DNA from: a virus | Lineage: Duplodnaviria; Caudoviricetes | Reading direction: 5' to 3' (one strand) | IMG/VR virus record: IMGVR_UViG_3300013121_000022 | Location: 96,001-160,000 of that record | DNA: 64,000 nt | Shown here: positions 24,352 to 54,141 of the stretch, piece by piece | How positions within the stretch are numbered: position 1 is the stretch's first letter | Layout of the letters: each line of letters opens with the position of its first letter | Notes under the pieces: generated by a model | Seen by the model: only the letters and a program-made list of their open reading frames with translations | Told to the model about the DNA's origin: nothing | Database searches by the model: none | Program-made: the position numbers and the translations under genes

Positions 24352-24429
24352 CAAAGGTGTTGACTAGATATATATAGTCGCCTTGCTGTTGAGGCCAGAT
24401 TCCGAAAACACTGGAACAACAGTATACCC

Positions 24430-24515
24430 GCATGAGTGGCGAAATGGTAGACGCGCAATGCTCAGAACGTTGTGACCTTAAATAAGTCGTAAGGGTTCGA
24501 GTCCCTTTTCATGCA
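24430..24515 (+). tRNA. tRNA-Leu(CAG)
   Basis: class II, loop CTCAGAA. Confidence 0.9.
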
Positions 24516-24572
24516 CAGACTTATGTACCACGCGTACAAAAAGTTACAGAGTCCCGCAATGGACTCCGGTTA

Positions 24573-24655
24573 GCCGATATGGTGGAATGCAGACACACTA
24601 CGTTTAGAGCGTAGCGATCTAAAAAATCGTGCAGGTTCAAATCCTGTTATCGGCA
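24573..24655 (+). tRNA. tRNA-Leu(UAG)
   Basis: class II, CTACG-TTTAGAG-CGTAG. Confidence 0.9.
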
Positions 24656-24738
24656 CAAGACTGATGTTCAAATAATCCGTATCCAGATTCTTTTGAACTG
24701 AGTCACCGATGCAATCGGCGGATAACGGTTGCATCAAC

Positions 24739-28747: not shown

Positions 28748-29196
28748 TGTTCATGAATGAAACTGGTATTTCCATAGGATTTGATACGGTAATTCCACCA
28801 AACGATTTTTGCGTTTTTGTTGTACCCATATTTGATATCAAGTAGTCATTCGTTTTCACCGAGCAAACCGCCTGAACTTAGATGCTGTAGAGTTGCTAAC
28901 ACAGACCTGAGTGTTGTAGTTGAATCAATTAATTTCCGCTCACGTAACGAAAATTTTTTTGGAGCTGTTTTTGCTCTGTATGCTCTAACCGCAGGATCGT
29001 TATCCAAAATTATTACATTGGAAAAACCTCAAGTCTGCTTCTCTGTTCTATCACAATCTAATTCAGGTCGTTCAAATCACCGATTGGCGGTTGAGGCATT
29101 ATACTGCGACAAACCCATTGTGTTTGCATATGTAGATCGACATCGAAAGACATTCCTTGACTTAGTTGCTGAACTAGGGTAATATCAACGTGATCG

Positions 29197-29570
29197 GCGC
29201 AGATCAAGTTGTCGAGCTCGAAAGAGTTAGGAACTTCCCGACGATACAGGAGCAATCCTGAAAACCCTCCACATGAAAACAGCAAGTGTGGACAGTTCGA
29301 CTGAACTGATGTCAACGGCAACAGAGAACATTCCGCTCGAAAGAGTAACGGGTGAAAAGGACGGTGATACCCGTCCGGCATGTCAAGGTAACTTGCTTGC
29401 ATAGGCGACAGGACAGGGGATCGCAAGGTGGCGCAAGATAGGCTACGGTTTATCTTGTAGAACCGCAGTATAAACGGTACGACAGAATAACACTCAGTCG
29501 CACTAGGATATACCATCAACCCGATGAGAAAGATGACAACCTAAACAGAATCGGGGGTATGATCGGCGCA
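29197..29570 (+). ncRNA. rnpB: RNase P RNA (phage-encoded)
   Basis: AGGAACTTCCCGAC pairs with AAACAGAATCGGGGGTAT (P4, bulged U); GCAACAGAGAAC..CCGC; GGGTGAAAAGG; GCAAGG; P2 GTTGTC/GACAAC; GAAA-capped P3. Confidence 0.88.
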
Positions 29571-29649
29571 GATTGGTTCTTGACAAAAAAATATAACCGA
29601 TCCATAATAATCTCAACTTCCACTATCTCACAGAAAGAGGATACCGAAC

Positions 29650-30555: not shown

Positions 30556-30622
30556 CAGTGTCCCATCAACAATTTATAGCAGGAGTCTTATCCTACTATG
30601 GACAGGGAATATGGGACAATCT

Positions 30623-35073: not shown

Positions 35074-36078
35074 CTGTTGGCCTGAACTTTACAAAAATTA
35101 CTGAGGGCGCTAATGGAGTTCAACTCTCCATCAGTAACATATCCAAATTGGAGTGGGGTAGTGCATACCCAAATCAAGGGAGGAAGCAAGCGAAAGCAAG
35201 CTGAAACCTGAGATTGAAACTCTAAGGCGGAGGGAACATCTAGTTCCCTTAGATAAAACCCGTAAGGGTAATAAAGGCGGATACCAATGGTCTGCCGGAT
35301 GCAAATCTCAACTAGACGAACTATCTTCGCTTGTGTTGGTGTAGGTGGTCGGCAAGAAATTGCAGGCTACTGAACAGCTAAGCCCACTGAAAAGGTGGTG
35401 AGTCCGAAAGACAAAACAATAAGATAGAGGGTAACAAGTTCGTTCGCAAGACGGGCGCTTACAAGACAATCGGCATCACTCCTAGCGGAACTTGCCAGAA
35501 AGTTAAGCGGTTACTGACAGCAAATCAGTGGCGGCAAAATGTGTGGTGTGGTAAAGGGATGCGTAAAAGTGTCTACAACCCGACAGGATACATCACGCAC
35601 AATTGGAAAAACTCTGCCTGAAGCTCAGGCTTGGCCTCTTAAGCAAATGCAATCGCAAAAATAAAGTCCTGTAGGTGTACGAGATTTACAGATACCCCTT
35701 CATTACCGTAACCAATCGGTGAATCAAGGCCACGAGCTTTGATATGTGCAACGAGTGAAGGATGTTCGGCGGCTTGCAACCGTTGGGCATCAGGCGCGGC
35801 GAGTGCATAGAAGATTTCGTAAACCTGAGTGGGTTGGGCTAAACCCACAAAAAGAAACTAAGCGACATCGTAAGCACAACGATACGCAAGGATAGCGGGG
35901 TAAAGTGTAGGATGATTGGGGTAACTCGATCTTGGAACAGAGCGGACACTGTGACGAACAGAACTGCTTGACTCTACACTAAAAAACGGAATGTGGCCTG
36001 AACCGTTTCTTGAAACGACTACCCTCTGGACTATATAGTCGAATGGACATATAATTCAGAGAGTGGTCATTTTTGTTT
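35074..36078 (+). ncRNA. large (~1 kb) structured ncRNA, possibly GOLLD-like
   Basis: no ORF of 60 aa or more on +; promoter TTGACA(35040)/TATAAT(35062); about 20 helices with GNRA loops; terminator-like hairpin at 36017-36078. Confidence 0.8.
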
Positions 36079-42901: not shown

Positions 42902-43116
42902 CACGAGACTGTTCGCACTTCATAGGACGCGTAATTGCATAGAAGTGAACGTTCATAAAGATTAGACTTGTCGTTTTTATGAACCGTAAGTTACCGCATA
43001 GACTTAAGGGAATGCGGCGGGAACAAGTCACCATGCAACCAACCGACAGAGGTTCAAGGAATTATCGACTGTTTGCCAATAGCATAGAATCTTAGAGTTC
43101 ATAGAAATTGGATTAT

Positions 43117-48655: not shown

Positions 48656-49537
48656 ATGAACACAAAAATGACTCGAACCTACAAACCCTATAAGTCTCTG
48701 GAAAATACATTTGCTGAACATGGACTGAAACTTAAGGTTGTATCTGATCCAATTACTGGACGCGGAAACAAAAATCAGGCGCAGATCGATATTACGGGCA
48801 ATCATTTTCGTTTGTACGCTGGCAAGAATCCTGAAACCAAAATTGCTGTGCAACACGCCGATGGCAAACACATTTTGCTGATGGTGAACGAACCAGAGAC
48901 GACATTCAAAACCGAAGTCACTCACCCAATCAAACGAGACAAGATCATCAAGGTTGTTCCTAAACAATCAAAATGGTCAACTGAAAAATATCTAATTGAA
49001 CGTATTTTACCAGCAGGTGTACGGCACTTTTTGATGGGTCAAGACGAGCGCGGCTTGTTTATTTCAACTGTAGCCAACGTCACGACTGTTCAAAGCGCAT
49101 TGAATTCATTGAAACGCAAGCCAATTGTTGAGGCCGAGAAAAAGGTCAAGGTCGTTCGTCAAGGTGAATGGTTCTTTGTTCCGGCGACCAAAGAGGAAGT
49201 ACACTCGATTGAACTGAGTGGCATAACACATCGCAATCATTCAATTGGTGATGCAACCAAAGTTCGCAGTGGCAAGCCTCATGTTGCACAAGAATTGGTG
49301 GTTGCCGAAATTTATCCGCTTGGACATTTCTTGCCGGAAGTCGAATTGGGTTATAACCTAACACGCTACAACAACGATCCGGTTGTGAACAACATGAACA
49401 CTCCTTATTATTTTGCGGTGTTTGTTCGCGGTAAAGTTGCACATGAAGATCATAAGTCGGTTCAGTTCAGTTGCTGGATGAAGGTCATCAAGAATAACGA
49501 ACGTCCTAATGTTACGGGCGGAAAGTGGTTTGATTAA
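48656..49537 (+). CDS. conserved phage hypothetical protein
   Basis: 293 aa, RQGEWFFVP..H..HEDH motif. Confidence 0.7.
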   Translation: MNTKMTRTYKPYKSLENTFAEHGLKLKVVSDPITGRGNKNQAQIDITGNHFRLYAGKNPETKIAVQHADGKHILLMVNEPETTFKTEVTHPIKRDKIIKVVPKQSKWSTEKYLIERILPAGVRHFLMGQDERGLFISTVANVTTVQSALNSLKRKPIVEAEKKVKVVRQGEWFFVPATKEEVHSIELSGITHRNHSIGDATKVRSGKPHVAQELVVAEIYPLGHFLPEVELGYNLTRYNNDPVVNNMNTPYYFAVFVRGKVAHEDHKSVQFSCWMKVIKNNERPNVTGGKWFD

Positions 49538-49706
49538 TTCTTGACAGTATCAGAACTTGTGATACAATTCCGTTCATCATTGCAGAGCACACTTAGAAAG
49601 TTGAAAAAATACTTTCAGCACCTGTGTTTCTTTCGTGAAGTTGCCGAGTGGTAAAACCTAACTTCAAGCCGAACGCTTATTGCTGTGCGATAACAGCAAT
49701 GACAAT

Positions 49707-49792
49707 GGCCTTGTGGTGGAACTAGGTAGACACAGCAGACTCAAAATCTGCCGCCCTAAAAAAGCGTGAAGGTTCGACTCCTTTCAAGGCCA
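49707..49792 (+). tRNA. tRNA-Leu(CAA)
   Basis: GCAGA-CTCAAAA-TCTGC, class II. Confidence 0.92.
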
Positions 49793-49894
49793 CACGTTGG
49801 TTTGCGGAATAGGCGACAGCAAACATCTGGATCGGCATTACGCGGAGTCTTCCCTGCCGATGAATAAATGAAGACCTTGACCTATTCAAATTGA

Positions 49895-49966
49895 CGCGGG
49901 GTAGAGCAGTGGTAGCTCGCTTGGCTCATAACCAAGAGATCGCAAGTTCGAGTCTTGCTCCCGCTA
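49895..49966 (+). tRNA. tRNA-Met(CAU), initiator-like
   Basis: CGCGGGG 5' end with C1:U72 mismatch; loop CTCATAA. Confidence 0.88.
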
Positions 49967-49970
49967 CTTT

Positions 49971-50043
49971 GGCTAGTTTCGTTAATTGGATAAACGGGTA
50001 GTCTCCAAAACTATTCCTGAGAGTTCGAGTCTCTCACTGGCCG
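49971..50043 (+). tRNA. tRNA-Trp(CCA)
   Basis: GTAGT-CTCCAAA-ACTAT. Confidence 0.88.
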
Positions 50044-50045
50044 CA

Positions 50046-50276
50046 ATGCGAATTCATTTCGACAGAACAAAATTTGATCTTGTATTATTCGGTGCTCGTT
50101 CGCAAGGGTGTCAGTTTGTTTTTCAAGATCGAACCTATAAATTCATAGGCAACAAGAAGTACGCAGATGTTGCCAACAAAATCTTTCATGGATGGGTTAT
50201 GGATTACACAATGGAAGACGCCAAACGTTATACTCGTTGGGCGAAAGAAGTATGTCAGCGTAGTTCAGATGGATAG
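50046..50276 (+). CDS. hypothetical protein
   Basis: ORF; 3' end overlaps tRNA-Arg. Confidence 0.45.
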   Translation: MRIHFDRTKFDLVLFGARSQGCQFVFQDRTYKFIGNKKYADVANKIFHGWVMDYTMEDAKRYTRWAKEVCQRSSDG

Positions 50277-50327
50277 AACGCATTCCTGCGAAGAATGAGG
50301 TCGTGAGTTCGAGTCTCGCCGTTGACA
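50254..50327 (+). tRNA. tRNA-Arg(GCG)
   Basis: CATTC-CTGCGAA-GAATG. Confidence 0.88.
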
Positions 50328-50328
50328 C

Positions 50329-50358
50329 AAGCACTCATTATCATGGGTGCTTTTTTTA
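50329..50358 (+). terminator. intrinsic terminator
   Basis: AAGCACTCAT-tatc-ATGGGTGCTTTTTTT. Confidence 0.85.
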
Positions 50359-50434
50359 TTGATCGGCGCAGAGCGCGCCTTTAATATTGACACTTGAAAT
50401 CAACTAAGGGACAATTAAGAAAAGGAAAACATTC

Positions 50435-51496
50435 ATGGCAAAAAAATCAATCAATCAAGAACTTGAAACAGTGCTATCGAATATCGATAAGAAATACGGA
50501 GAGGGCGCAATTGTCAAAGTATCCGAAACCGAGATCAAGCATATCCCCGTTGTATCAACAGGATCGTTGAGTCTCAATCATGCGCTAGGCGTCGGCGGAT
50601 ACCCACTGAACCGTATCACTGAAATTTATGGGCCAGAATCGTCCGGCAAAACAACACTCTGTATTCACGCAATTGTTGAAGGTCAAAAGAAGTTTCCAGA
50701 TCGACAGGTTGCCTTTGTGGATATGGAACATGCTTTGGATATTGCATATACCGAAGCACTTGGAGCGGACTTGGATCGCTTGTATGTGTCACAGCCCGAT
50801 ACTGGCGAACAAGCACTAGAGATTACAGAAGCATTAGTTCGATCTGGTCAGTTTTCAGTCGTGGTTGTCGATTCGGTTGCAGCTCTTGTCCCTAAAGCCG
50901 AAATTGAAGGCGAAATGGGCGATGCTCAGGTTGGGCGACAAGCTCGATTGATGAGTCAGGCTATGCGTAAAATTTCTCCGGCGCTCAAGTCGAACGATAT
51001 TGATCGATCATGCGCCTTGATTTTTACTAATCAAATTCGGATGAAAATTGGCGTTATGTTTGGCAATCCAGAGACGACTAGCGGCGGCAACGCCTTGAAA
51101 TTTTATTCCAGTATCCGGCTAGATGTTCGCAAAACTGCGACAGTCAAAGATGCGGAAAAAGTCTCTTTATCAAATACAACTCGCGTCAAGGTGGTGAAGA
51201 ACAAGGTTGCTCCGCCATTCCGTGAGGCGATCTTGGATATTGAATTCGGCAAAGGTATCGATTTGGCGTCTGAACTGATTACACTTGGACTTGAATACAA
51301 TATTTTGGTCAAGCGTGGTGCGTTTTTCTCGTATAACGATAATCGTCTTGGTCAGGGAGCGGTAAACACCAAAAAATATATTTCCGAACACCCTGAGTTG
51401 GCATCTGAACTTACAGAGAAAATCGAGCAGGCTATTGCATCGGGTGTTGAAAAGCAAGTGGTTATCAAATCAGACACTGACTTAAGTGAAGAATAG
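50435..51496 (+). CDS. recA: recombinase RecA
   Basis: [53 protein letters not shown]. Confidence 0.98.
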
Positions 51497-52896: not shown

Positions 52897-54141
52897 ATGC
52901 AGATCAATTTTTGGATTCCCGTTGTTGTAGTTGCCGTGATTACGGGGTTGGCGGCAATCTTCTTTCATCCGAAAGAGACGGTACGTAGGTCGGGCTATTA
53001 TCGTAAGTTTTCTCAATCACCATCAGTGACATGGTATGAGGCACTTGCGGTATTTTGCGCGGCCTTTTTTATTCAATGGCTTGGATGGAATATAGCCATT
53101 CGTCAGCAGGCCAGTGCGGTTGAGTTTTTAAATGGACACATCGCGGCCAAAGGATCGACTGACTGGCAGTTTGATGTATGCGATAGTTATTCCACAGATA
53201 AGGACGGTAATCGAACTTGCACAAGTCATCATACGGAGTATCGAACCAACTATTGGGCGAACACCAATTATGTTGAATTCTTTCCATCAGAAGGACACTT
53301 GAATTACGGAGATGTGAAACGAAACGATCCGCCTCCCCAACGATGGGCTTTAGCGCAAGTTGGCGATCCGGTTACGACATTGCACACTTACACCAATAAT
53401 GTCAAAGGTGCTGGACGACTCAACCAGATGTTTCCTAACTCGCCTTTGACACAAACCTTGCGCGATCAAAATGCATTTCCGCCATTACCTACTTCCCTTC
53501 ACTCGTTCGATTATGCACCAAAGGTGTTTTATATTGGTGGAACTCCCCAAAACGGAGAGACTTATAGCGATGTAACAGTCAAGTTTCGCGACGGGAAAAT
53601 CAATAGCGTCCATGTATATACCCTGAACGAATCATCTCGCGAAATGAACAAGATCAACGATCCGCTAGGCAACTCCAAGCAGGCGAATACCCAAGTCTTT
53701 TTTGTTGTGGGTCAACCAATTGAATACGCCAATGCTTACATGGATTATGCCGAAGGCGGGGGCAAGAATGATGTCAATGTCTTTGTCGGCCTGTCAGACG
53801 ATGGTCAGACAGTTGTATGGGCAACAGTACGATTTGGGCTGGTGGGATTTGATCAAACCGACGAATCGAACGGTGGATCAAACGCCATGCTGGACATCAA
53901 ATTAGGCCGCGAGCTGCGGCACAAGACACTGACTGAACTTGGCGGCTACACTGGTGTGGTCAAGTTGTCCGGCGAATACGTCAATCTGTATTTTGATCGT
54001 GTGCCAAACAAACAATTCAAGTTTTTGGAAGCAGAGTTTGAACCGCGTGGTGGTTGGGCGGTATTCGTGAACTTCACAACGTATATAGTGGCGCTCGTGT
54101 TGTTGGTTGTGGCGTTTATCGTAAACGTAGAAGAAATTTAA
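52897..54141 (+). CDS. membrane-anchored protein with large extracytoplasmic domain
   Basis: two N-terminal TMs, CDSY..CTSH loop, GGKNDV motif, C-terminal TM. Confidence 0.7.
   Translation: MQINFWIPVVVVAVITGLAAIFFHPKETVRRSGYYRKFSQSPSVTWYEALAVFCAAFFIQWLGWNIAIRQQASAVEFLNGHIAAKGSTDWQFDVCDSYSTDKDGNRTCTSHHTEYRTNYWANTNYVEFFPSEGHLNYGDVKRNDPPPQRWALAQVGDPVTTLHTYTNNVKGAGRLNQMFPNSPLTQTLRDQNAFPPLPTSLHSFDYAPKVFYIGGTPQNGETYSDVTVKFRDGKINSVHVYTLNESSREMNKINDPLGNSKQANTQVFFVVGQPIEYANAYMDYAEGGGKNDVNVFVGLSDDGQTVVWATVRFGLVGFDQTDESNGGSNAMLDIKLGRELRHKTLTELGGYTGVVKLSGEYVNLYFDRVPNKQFKFLEAEFEPRGGWAVFVNFTTYIVALVLLVVAFIVNVEEI

What the first reader, a model, noticed from the sequence alone, without database searches (positions are those of the whole stretch)
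49797..49890. Compact double-pseudoknot RNA between tRNA-Leu(CAA) and initiator tRNA
Seen: hairpin GTTTGC(49800)/GCAAAC(49819), whose loop GAATAGG pairs with CCTATTC(49881). A second hairpin ATCGGCA(49831)/TGCCGAT(49855) has loop GTCTTC pairing with GAAGAC(49870). That is four perfect 6-7 bp helices in 90 nt. Known: tRNA-adjacent self-cleaving theta (HDV-like) ribozymes occur in phages, but this topology differs. Inference: candidate new ribozyme or nuclease-resistant fold.
Basis: partly seen in the sequence, partly recalled or inferred. Interest (0 to 1): 0.75.

Follow-up and report, generated by a model that had tools for sequence, protein, structure and literature searches.

The report
Possible double-pseudoknot in phage tRNA spacer
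The 101-base gap between two tRNA genes of an orphan 172-kb phage can pair into four perfect short helices exactly as described, but that count is within chance for a window this size, the fold is no more stable than shuffled sequence, and no relatives exist to test it, so it is most likely an ordinary tRNA spacer.

Summary
Observation confirmed. The four perfect Watson-Crick helices lie at the stated coordinates, between tRNA-Leu(CAA) and an initiator-like tRNA-Met. They sit inside a four-tRNA operon (promoter 49541, terminator 50329) of a complete 172.5-kb phage. That phage has 46 tRNAs, its own RNase P RNA and a CCA-adding-type gene.

The interpretation cannot be decided.
- Against: 29% of random 64-kb sequences contain an equally good set of four helices. 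The whole genome holds two such sets, as chance predicts. The nested fold is no more stable than shuffles (z -0.14), and a crude two-layer estimate gives about -1.3.
- For: such a set falling inside a tRNA-tRNA spacer is expected only about 0.009 times per window. All linkers are long enough for both pseudoknots to form.

No Rfam family matches, even at E 10. An HDV-type descriptor fails: 5 nt sit where P3/L3 belong, and no catalytic C follows P4. No homologue turned up in any collection searched, so covariation is untestable.

My odds:
- ordinary spacer, closing helix plus hairpin: about 0.5
- genuine non-catalytic double-pseudoknot RNA: about 0.35
- remodelled tRNA: about 0.08
- new ribozyme: about 0.05

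This scan has noted the same stretch again in an overlapping window, but never on other DNA.

The parts
49541..49568 (+). Sigma-70-type promoter of the four-tRNA operon (TTGACA, 16 nt, TACAAT, with TG before the -10)
   Evidence: 11 of 12 consensus positions plus an extended -10
49569..49706 (+). Leader with three perfect hairpins; the last ends 6 nt before tRNA-Leu
   Evidence: stems 49596-49601/49611-49616, 49636-49642/49660-49666 and 49679-49686/49693-49700
49707..49793 (+). tRNA-Leu(CAA); no CCA encoded (discriminator A49792 is followed by CAC)
   Evidence: (53.2 bits) and sequence
49794..49894 (+). 101-nt transcribed spacer holding the candidate fold
49800..49824 (+). H1 hairpin: 6 bp (49800-49805/49819-49824) with a 13-nt loop. 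It crosses PK1.
   Evidence: under 1% paired in the nested ensemble
49807..49887 (+). PK1: 7-bp long-range closing helix (49807-49813/49881-49887). It encloses 67 nt.
   Evidence: 98.5% paired in the nested ensemble
49831..49861 (+). H2 hairpin: 7 bp (49831-49837/49855-49861) with a 17-nt loop
   Evidence: 98.1% paired in the nested ensemble
49847..49875 (+). PK2: 6-bp pairing of the H2 loop (49847-49852) with the downstream strand (49870-49875)
   Evidence: under 1% paired in the nested ensemble, because it crosses H2
49895..49967 (+). tRNA-Met(CAT), initiator-like: C1xA72 mismatch and two of the three G-C pairs next to the anticodon loop
   Evidence: 62.7 bits
49971..50044 (+). tRNA-Trp(CCA)
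50045..50253 (+). Second spacer of the operon (209 nt), with seven perfect stems of at least 6 bp, some crossing
50254..50328 (+). tRNA-Arg(GCG)
50329..50352 (+). Intrinsic-terminator-like hairpin (10 pairs) followed by a T run; it ends the operon

Best explanation
This is an ordinary transcribed spacer inside a phage tRNA operon: promoter, tRNA-Leu(CAA), 101-nt spacer, initiator-like tRNA-Met, tRNA-Trp, 209-nt spacer, tRNA-Arg(GCG), terminator.

Shown: the operon layout and the four complementarities.

Inferred: on the transcript the spacer folds at least into a 7-bp closing helix (49807-49813/49881-49887) around a 7-bp hairpin (49831-49861). That makes it a self-contained module which keeps the flanking tRNAs from mispairing. 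RNase P cuts 5' of tRNA-Met (the phage carries its own RNase P RNA). An RNase Z-type or exonucleolytic step trims the CCA-less tRNA-Leu (the phage also carries a CCA-adding-type gene). The roughly 100-nt piece is then released and discarded.

On this reading the two crossing helices (H1, PK2) are coincidental or at most marginal additions, and the RNA is not catalytic.
For: Operon context:
- A consensus promoter lies at 49541-49568 and a terminator at 50329-50352.
- The tRNAs are placed as described.

Fold:
- In the nested ensemble the closing helix and H2 are 98% paired, and they form the minimum-free-energy fold.
- Other spacers of this phage are built from closing stems and hairpins. Five of the 14 have a folding z-score below -2.5. 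Perfect stems run at twice the expectation across all spacers, 38 against 20.7.

Chance:
- Four compatible perfect helices totalling at least 26 bp occur in 29% of random 64-kb sequences.
- The real genome has two such loci against 0.95 expected.
- With relaxed rules (at least 5 bp, one G-U allowed per helix), the same strand order at 26 bp or more occurs six times on the two strands of the genome, mostly outside tRNA spacers.

Stability:
- The nested z-score is -0.14.
- The two layers sum to -26.7 kcal/mol, against -22.3 +/- 3.3 for shuffles, with no pseudoknot penalty applied.

No known family matches.

Processing machinery:
- The phage's own RNase P RNA is at 29196-29574 (RF00010, 58.9 bits, E 2e-17, full length).
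- A PF01743 CCA-adding-type gene is present.
Against: - A chance set should land anywhere in the window, but this one exactly fills a tRNA-tRNA spacer. Such spacers make up 2.6% of the window, so the chance expectation there is about 0.009.
- The spacer alone reaches this helix count in only 2 of 20,000 shuffles. Given the nested core, two more compatible helices arise in 0.5% of shuffles.
- The strand order is clean: one H-type pseudoknot sits inside loop 3 of another. Among the chance sets this order was 1 of 65 observed, most of them tangled.
- All linkers (1, 5, 6, 9, 2, 8 and 5 nt) satisfy the usual loop-length rules for H-type pseudoknots.
- The nested core is itself not statistically significant, so even the modest fold is inferred rather than shown.
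Confidence: 0.5

Rival explanations
1. It is a genuine, compact, non-catalytic double-pseudoknot RNA of a new and so far single-member class. All four helices form: H1 with PK1, and H2 with PK2 lying inside loop 3 of the first pseudoknot. After RNase P and 3' processing free it, the tight fold with only 7-nt tails slows exonucleases. It then persists as a stable by-product RNA, or it shields the neighbouring tRNA ends during maturation. This would resemble the small stable RNAs processed out of the phage T4 tRNA cluster (own knowledge).
For: - It fills a tRNA-tRNA spacer, where the chance expectation is about 0.009.
- The helix count is reached by only 2 of 20,000 shuffles of the spacer, and the conditional figure is 0.5%.
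- Loop lengths are sterically feasible (read).
- H1 and PK2 use no base of the nested core, and each adds about -10 kcal/mol of stacking.
- The phage is unusually rich in RNA genes: 46 tRNAs, a tmRNA call, RNase P RNA and many structured spacers.
Against: - No homologue exists, so there is no covariation.
- The look-elsewhere probability over the whole window is 29%.
- The fold is not more stable than shuffles.
- With standard pseudoknot penalties of about 9-15 kcal/mol each (own knowledge of the Dirks-Pierce model), the double pseudoknot is no better than the nested fold at -22.8 kcal/mol.
- A competing stem (49861-49866/49883-49888) exists.
- No similar fold is found in the phage's other spacers.
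Confidence: 0.35
2. It is a remodelled or decaying tRNA gene. The 7-bp closing helix would be a former acceptor stem, followed by 2 nt, a 3-bp D-like stem and a 5-7-bp anticodon-like stem. The module is tRNA-sized (81 nt) and occupies a slot that other phages fill with a tRNA.
For: - In 21 viral loci with a tRNA, a gap of about 100 nt and an initiator tRNA, the gap usually holds another complete tRNA.
- The closing helix is 7 bp, is followed by an A, and encloses 67 nt.
- Adjacent tRNAs in this array are otherwise often only 1-4 nt apart.
Against: - ARAGORN finds no tRNA there.
- The Rfam tRNA model gives nothing, even at E 10 on the spacer alone.
- No T arm can be drawn. There is no U8 and no GG in the D-like loop. 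The anticodon-like loop is 17-19 nt (read).
- Perfect 7-bp helices are not what decay produces.
Confidence: 0.08
3. It is a self-cleaving ribozyme of a new class that helps free the 3' end of tRNA-Leu or the 5' end of tRNA-Met. Its outer frame resembles HDV or theta ribozymes.
For: - Position: theta ribozymes sit next to phage tRNAs. More than 70% are beside tRNA-Met, suppressor tRNAs or tRNA-Leu, mostly CCA-less ones, and the phages carrying them are enriched for CCA-adding enzymes (PMC10879173).
- This phage has CCA-less tRNAs and a PF01743 gene.
- The order P1, P2, P1', hairpin, P2' matches the HDV frame.
Against: - Only 5 nt (CGACA) lie where the P3/L3 hairpin and the P1.1 partners must be.
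- The first base after the P4-like hairpin is G, not the catalytic C.
- H1 starts 7-8 nt after the tRNA end, whereas theta ribozymes cleave within 5 nt of it.
- An HDV-type descriptor gives 0 hits.
- No ribozyme family in Rfam matches at E up to 10.
- The phage already carries RNase P RNA for 5' processing.
- Nothing positive points to catalysis.
Confidence: 0.05

Closest known systems
HDV-like / theta ribozymes beside phage tRNAs (PMC10879173)
   Same: It lies directly downstream of a CCA-less phage tRNA. The neighbours are tRNA-Leu and tRNA-Met, and the phage has a CCA-adding-type gene. It has the nested double-pseudoknot frame with the order P1, P2, P1', hairpin, P2'.
   Different: It has no P3/L3 hairpin (5 nt only), so P1.1 cannot form. 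There is no cytosine at the start of J4/2. The element starts 7-8 nt from the tRNA end. It has an extra loop-to-junction helix (PK2). There is no model or descriptor match. Theta ribozymes are reported from gut phages of Bacteroidota and Bacillota, whereas this phage's RecA and RNase P RNA point to Chloroflexota.
Structured inter-tRNA spacers of this same phage (for example 30557-30622 and 24657-24738)
   Same: They are non-coding, lie between tRNAs on the same strand, and are built from a closing stem and/or internal hairpins that start and end a few nt from the tRNAs.
   Different: Those spacers are clearly more stable than shuffles (z -2.7 to -4.6) and need no crossing helices. This one has z -0.14 and stands out only through its two crossing helices.
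Small stable RNAs of the phage T4 tRNA cluster (species 1 and 2, rnaD and rnaC; own knowledge, not checked here)
   Same: They are non-tRNA RNAs co-transcribed with phage tRNAs and released by tRNA processing enzymes, with no known function.
   Different: The T4 RNAs are longer (about 120-140 nt) and were detected experimentally. This RNA has not been observed.
Classical H-type pseudoknots (Pleij rules), such as the pseudoknotted acceptor arm of the TYMV tRNA-like structure (own knowledge)
   Same: A hairpin loop pairs with a downstream strand. Loop lengths allow both pseudoknots: 1 nt across the 7-bp stem, and 8-9 nt loops in the second.
   Different: Here the 5' and 3' ends leave from opposite ends of the H1/PK1 stack, so it does not mimic an acceptor arm. 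A 5-nt bulge interrupts coaxial stacking. No CCA end is present.

Membership tests
HDV-like / theta ribozyme | Nested double pseudoknot with the order P1, P2, (P3), P1', (P4), P2' | tested here: inconclusive
   The outer order is present: H1 as P1, PK1 as P2 and H2 as P4. The inner part is missing, as the next rows show.
HDV-like / theta ribozyme | A 3-bp P3 hairpin with L3 between the P2 5' strand and the P1 3' strand, with L3 pairing to J1/4 (P1.1) | tested here: not met
   Only CGACA (49814-49818) lies there. The descriptor scan of 49780-49900 gave 0 hits.
HDV-like / theta ribozyme | Catalytic cytosine at the first position of J4/2 | tested here: not met
   The base after the H2 3' strand is G49862. 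The motif definition is taken from PMC10879173.
HDV-like / theta ribozyme | Cleavage site (first base of P1) within 5 nt of the tRNA 3' end | tested here: not met
   The discriminator is A49792. H1 begins at G49800, so 7 nt intervene.
HDV-like / theta ribozyme | Match to the Rfam HDV-type covariance models | tested here: not met
   No non-tRNA match on this strand at E up to 10 in 49600-50100, and none at all on the spacer alone.
Other catalogued self-cleaving ribozymes (hammerhead, twister, twister-sister, pistol, hatchet, hairpin, glmS) | Match to the family covariance model | tested here: not met
   Searches gave no match at the gathering score or at E up to 10.
tRNA or tRNA pseudogene | Cloverleaf with a T arm and conserved U8, G18G19 and T-loop | tested here: not met
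   ARAGORN and the Rfam tRNA model find nothing. No T stem can be drawn in 49862-49880.
Structured inter-tRNA spacer (processed and discarded) | Lies inside a tRNA transcription unit, is non-coding, and is flanked by tRNAs on the same strand | tested here: met
   Promoter and terminator and tRNAs. The only ORF is a 55-aa antisense frame that overlaps tRNA-Leu.
Structured inter-tRNA spacer (processed and discarded) | A fold more stable than shuffled sequence | tested here: not met
   z -0.14 for this spacer (-0.18), against -2.7 to -4.6 for five of the other 13 spacers tested.
H-type pseudoknot | Loop lengths able to span the grooves: loop 1 of at least 1 nt for a 6-7-bp stem 2, and loop 3 of at least about 3-6 nt for a 6-7-bp stem 1 | tested here: met
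   First pseudoknot: loops of 1, 5 and 56 nt. Second pseudoknot: loops of 9, 2 and 8 nt (from; the rules are own knowledge).
H-type pseudoknot | Covariation or experimental support for both stems | not testable with these tools
   No homologue was found in any collection.
T4-type stable RNAs of tRNA clusters | A discrete stable RNA detected in infected cells | not testable with these tools
   No expression data are available, and the host is uncultured.

The most novel reading that the evidence does not exclude
The 88-nt element is a new class of small self-cleaving or exonuclease-blocking RNA. It keeps the HDV-like P1-P2-P4 nested frame but replaces the P3/L3 core with a second pseudoknot. 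A phage that carries its own RNase P RNA and CCA-adding-type gene would use it to mature CCA-less tRNAs.
Probability: 0.05. Interest if true: 0.85.

Novelty: new member of a known kind. Interest (0 to 1): 0.3.

Why it matters
If all four helices really form, this would be a compact nested double pseudoknot of a type not catalogued. It would sit in a phage that seems to carry a private tRNA-maturation kit, and it would be a candidate for a new processing or nuclease-resistant element.

On present evidence it is one more structured spacer in an RNA-dense phage island. The practical lesson is statistical: counting perfect short helices overstates significance. About three in ten random 64-kb sequences offer an equally good set of four helices. 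Energy-based tests do not single this sequence out.

Tried and rejected
Homologue hunting, all negative:
- An exact 25-mer of the element in viral contigs.
- tRNA-Leu and tRNA-Met anchors with an 80-110-nt gap, and the tRNA-Leu 3' half alone.
- Two linker-only patterns that left the helices free to vary.
- blastn of the spacer and of 2 kb around it against 50,697 phage records. Only tRNA and recA matches, or chance hits at E of about 1, came back.
- The metagenome scan with the tRNA-Leu anchor. It gave two AT-rich contigs with a tRNA-Leu(TAA) and an unrelated spacer.
- Two 25-mers in 185,579 prokaryote genomes.

Relatives sought through proteins:
- RecA: nearest 60% identical, and bacterial.
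- The upstream 293-aa ORF: nearest 35% identical.
- Some of the ORF's distant relatives sit in tRNA arrays of large phages. Neither blastn nor a covariance model of the nested core (20 records) finds the element there.

Other attempts:
- 21 viral loci with a tRNA, a gap of about 100 nt and an initiator tRNA. The gap is usually another tRNA and none resembles the element.
I could not re-find that phage, so it gave no comparison.
- A weak model hit at 53399-53459 on the minus strand (20.7 bits). It lies antisense inside a coding region, shares only AAACATCTGG with the spacer, and was dismissed as chance.
- My two-layer folding heuristic never recovered the proposed fold by itself, so the z of about -1.3 is only rough.
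- A DNA-level reading (operators or attachment sites) was considered and dropped. The repeats are interleaved, lie up to 67 nt apart, and sit inside a tRNA transcript.

Full report
WHAT IS THERE

The window is bases 96001-160000 of a complete 172,504-bp virus record with direct terminal repeats. ARAGORN finds 46 tRNA genes and a tmRNA-like gene in the genome, 43 of the tRNAs inside the window.

The finding lies in a compact tRNA operon. A near-consensus promoter sits at 49541-49568 (TTGACA, 16 nt, TACAAT, with an extended -10). A 138-nt leader with three hairpins follows. Then come tRNA-Leu(CAA) at 49707-49793, a 101-nt spacer, tRNA-Met(CAT) at 49895-49967, tRNA-Trp, a 209-nt spacer, tRNA-Arg(GCG), and a terminator-like hairpin at 50329-50352. 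The tRNA-Met has the C1xA72 mismatch typical of bacterial initiators. None of these tRNAs encodes CCA.

THE OBSERVATION

- H1: 49800-49805 / 49819-49824
- PK1: 49807-49813 / 49881-49887
- H2: 49831-49837 / 49855-49861
- PK2: 49847-49852 / 49870-49875

That makes 26 Watson-Crick pairs and no G-U, so the pairing itself does not say which strand matters. Context says the plus strand. The strand order is a b a' c d c' d' b': one H-type pseudoknot (H2 with PK2) sits inside loop 3 of another (H1 with PK1). The linkers are 1, 5, 6, 9, 2, 8 and 5 nt long, which is enough by the usual groove-spanning rules (own knowledge). A fifth perfect stem, 49861-49866 / 49883-49888, competes with PK1.

IS IT MORE THAN CHANCE?

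The answer depends on the question asked.
- For the spacer alone it looks striking. Only 2 of 20,000 shuffles give four compatible perfect stems of at least 6 bp totalling at least 26 bp. With the two nested helices held fixed, two more compatible helices arise in 0.5% of shuffles.
Of 308 first-order Markov sequences of that length, 89 (29%) hold at least one equally good locus, with a mean of 0.35 per window. The real genome holds two such loci where 0.95 are expected.
- With relaxed rules (helices of at least 5 bp, one G-U each), the same strand order at 26 bp or more occurs six times on the two strands of the genome, mostly outside tRNA spacers.
- Energy tests do not flag the sequence. The nested minimum free energy is -22.8 kcal/mol, z -0.14. 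The two layers add to -26.7 kcal/mol before any pseudoknot penalty, against -22.3 +/- 3.3 for shuffles treated with a crude two-layer heuristic.
- Location favours a real feature. tRNA-tRNA spacers make up 1.69 kb (2.6%) of the window. A chance locus there is therefore expected only about 0.009 times.
- The strand order also favours it. This clean order was just 1 of the 65 orders seen among the chance sets.

Weighing these, I put the odds that all four helices form at a little under even.

WHAT THE NESTED FOLD SAYS

In the pseudoknot-free ensemble the closing helix PK1 and hairpin H2 are each 98% paired. H1 and PK2 are under 1%, because they cross the other two.

A closing stem plus an internal hairpin is the house style of this phage's spacers. 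Five of the 14 spacers fold far better than shuffles, with z from -2.7 to -4.6. Perfect stems across all spacers run at twice the expectation, 38 against 20.7. Crossing pairs are also raised (19 against 7.6), but no more than the doubled stem density would produce.

KNOWN FAMILIES

Rfam 15 finds only tRNAs at the gathering threshold. At E up to 10 it finds nothing else on this strand in 49600-50100, and nothing at all in the spacer searched alone.

I compared the element with HDV-like theta ribozymes. These lie within 5 nt of the 3' end of phage tRNAs. More than 70% are beside tRNA-Met, suppressor tRNAs or tRNA-Leu, and almost all of those tRNAs lack CCA. The phages that carry them are enriched for CCA-adding enzymes (PMC10879173). 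The setting here is similar: the tRNAs lack CCA and the phage has a PF01743 gene.

The catalytic core is absent, though:
- Only CGACA lies where P3, L3 and the P1.1 partners belong.
- The base after the P4-like hairpin is G, not the catalytic C.
- H1 begins 7 nt beyond the discriminator.
- A permissive HDV-type descriptor finds nothing.

The element is therefore not a member of that family.

A tRNA or tRNA-remnant reading was also tested. The closing helix is 7 bp and encloses 67 nt. In other viral loci the roughly 100-nt gap before an initiator tRNA usually holds a whole tRNA. But there is no T arm, no conserved tRNA base, and no ARAGORN or Rfam signal.

HOMOLOGUES

None was found, so covariation cannot be tested.
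- DNA scans: exact and linker-only patterns in viral contigs, blastn against phage records, a metagenome scan and two scans of prokaryote genomes all fail.
- Neighbouring proteins: the phage is an orphan. Among 5.8 billion proteins, RecA has no relative above 60% identity and the upstream 293-aa ORF none above 35%.
- Model searches: a covariance model of the nested core finds nothing in 20 large phage records, nor in 21 loci with the tRNA-gap-initiator layout.

MOST LIKELY MECHANISM

I commit to the ordinary reading at about 0.5. The spacer is a transcribed, self-folding module (closing helix plus hairpin) that keeps the flanking tRNAs from mispairing. It is cut out by RNase P at the 5' end of tRNA-Met and by 3' processing of tRNA-Leu, and then discarded. 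The phage supplies its own RNase P RNA at 29196-29574 (RF00010, 58.9 bits, E 2e-17, full length, below the gathering score). The operon layout and the complementarities are shown. The folding and the processing are inferred.

The rivals are:
- a true non-catalytic double-pseudoknot RNA that persists or shields tRNA ends, at about 0.35
- a remodelled tRNA, at about 0.08
- a new self-cleaving ribozyme, at about 0.05

EARLIER NOTES OF THIS SCAN

Earlier notes gave two leads that I checked. The RNase P RNA was confirmed. The house style of stem-closed spacers was partly confirmed. A third lead, a second phage carrying a homologue of the 1-kb RNA at 35074-36078, I could not reproduce. The same 88-nt stretch was noted again in an overlapping window of this genome. 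That is not independent evidence, and nothing like it has been noted on other DNA.

VERDICT

The ribozyme or nuclease-resistant interpretation can be neither supported nor excluded. The feature is best filed as one more structured tRNA spacer of an RNA-rich orphan phage, with a minority chance of being a new pseudoknotted RNA. Interest 0.3.

Noticed in passing
window 29196-29574 (+): A full-length bacterial class A RNase P RNA. It scores 58.9 bits (E 2e-17), below Rfam's gathering score of 100, so the default scan missed it. The phage therefore carries its own tRNA 5'-processing ribozyme.
   Followed up: partly
genome 22505-22834 (outside the window; locus L111): A PF01743 (PolyA_pol / CCA-adding head domain) match of 98 bits within a 567-aa open frame. 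This fits the fact that the four operon tRNAs lack an encoded CCA.
   Followed up: no
genome 163325-163638 (outside the window): ARAGORN calls a tmRNA with the tag peptide DNTSKEVAQFEAMFAQFASQGAVIAA. The tag is unusually long, and the gene sits beside two tRNA-Gln genes and a second tRNA-Met.
   Followed up: no
window 50045-50253 (+): The next spacer of the same operon (Trp to Arg) has seven perfect stems of at least 6 bp against 3.4 expected. They include an H-type crossing pair, AACAAA/TTTGTT with GATCTTG/CAAGATC. Its nested z-score is only -0.03.
   Followed up: partly
window 42903-43116 (+): The Ile-to-Pro spacer (214 nt) also has seven perfect stems against 3.2 expected, with six crossing pairs.
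   Followed up: no
window 24353-24738 and 30557-30622 (+): The spacers between the Leu tRNAs and between the two Thr tRNAs fold into hairpins far more stable than shuffles, with z from -2.7 to -4.6. Structured spacers are a general trait of this array.
   Followed up: partly
window 50435-51496 (+): A bacterial-type RecA (Pfam RecA, E 2e-115) with its own promoter at 50387-50415. Its best named relatives are Chloroflexota and Anaerolineae proteins at 54-60% identity, which hints at the host lineage.
   Followed up: partly
window 48656-49537 (+): A 293-aa ORF with no Pfam family lies directly upstream of the operon. Its distant relatives (25-35% identity) are in large phage contigs, several beside tRNA arrays. 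It may be a tRNA-island-associated gene of unknown function.
   Followed up: partly
genome 43141-43230 (outside the window): The only other locus in the genome with four compatible perfect stems totalling 26 bp (order aAbcBdDC). It was not examined further and is taken as the chance counterpart.
   Followed up: no
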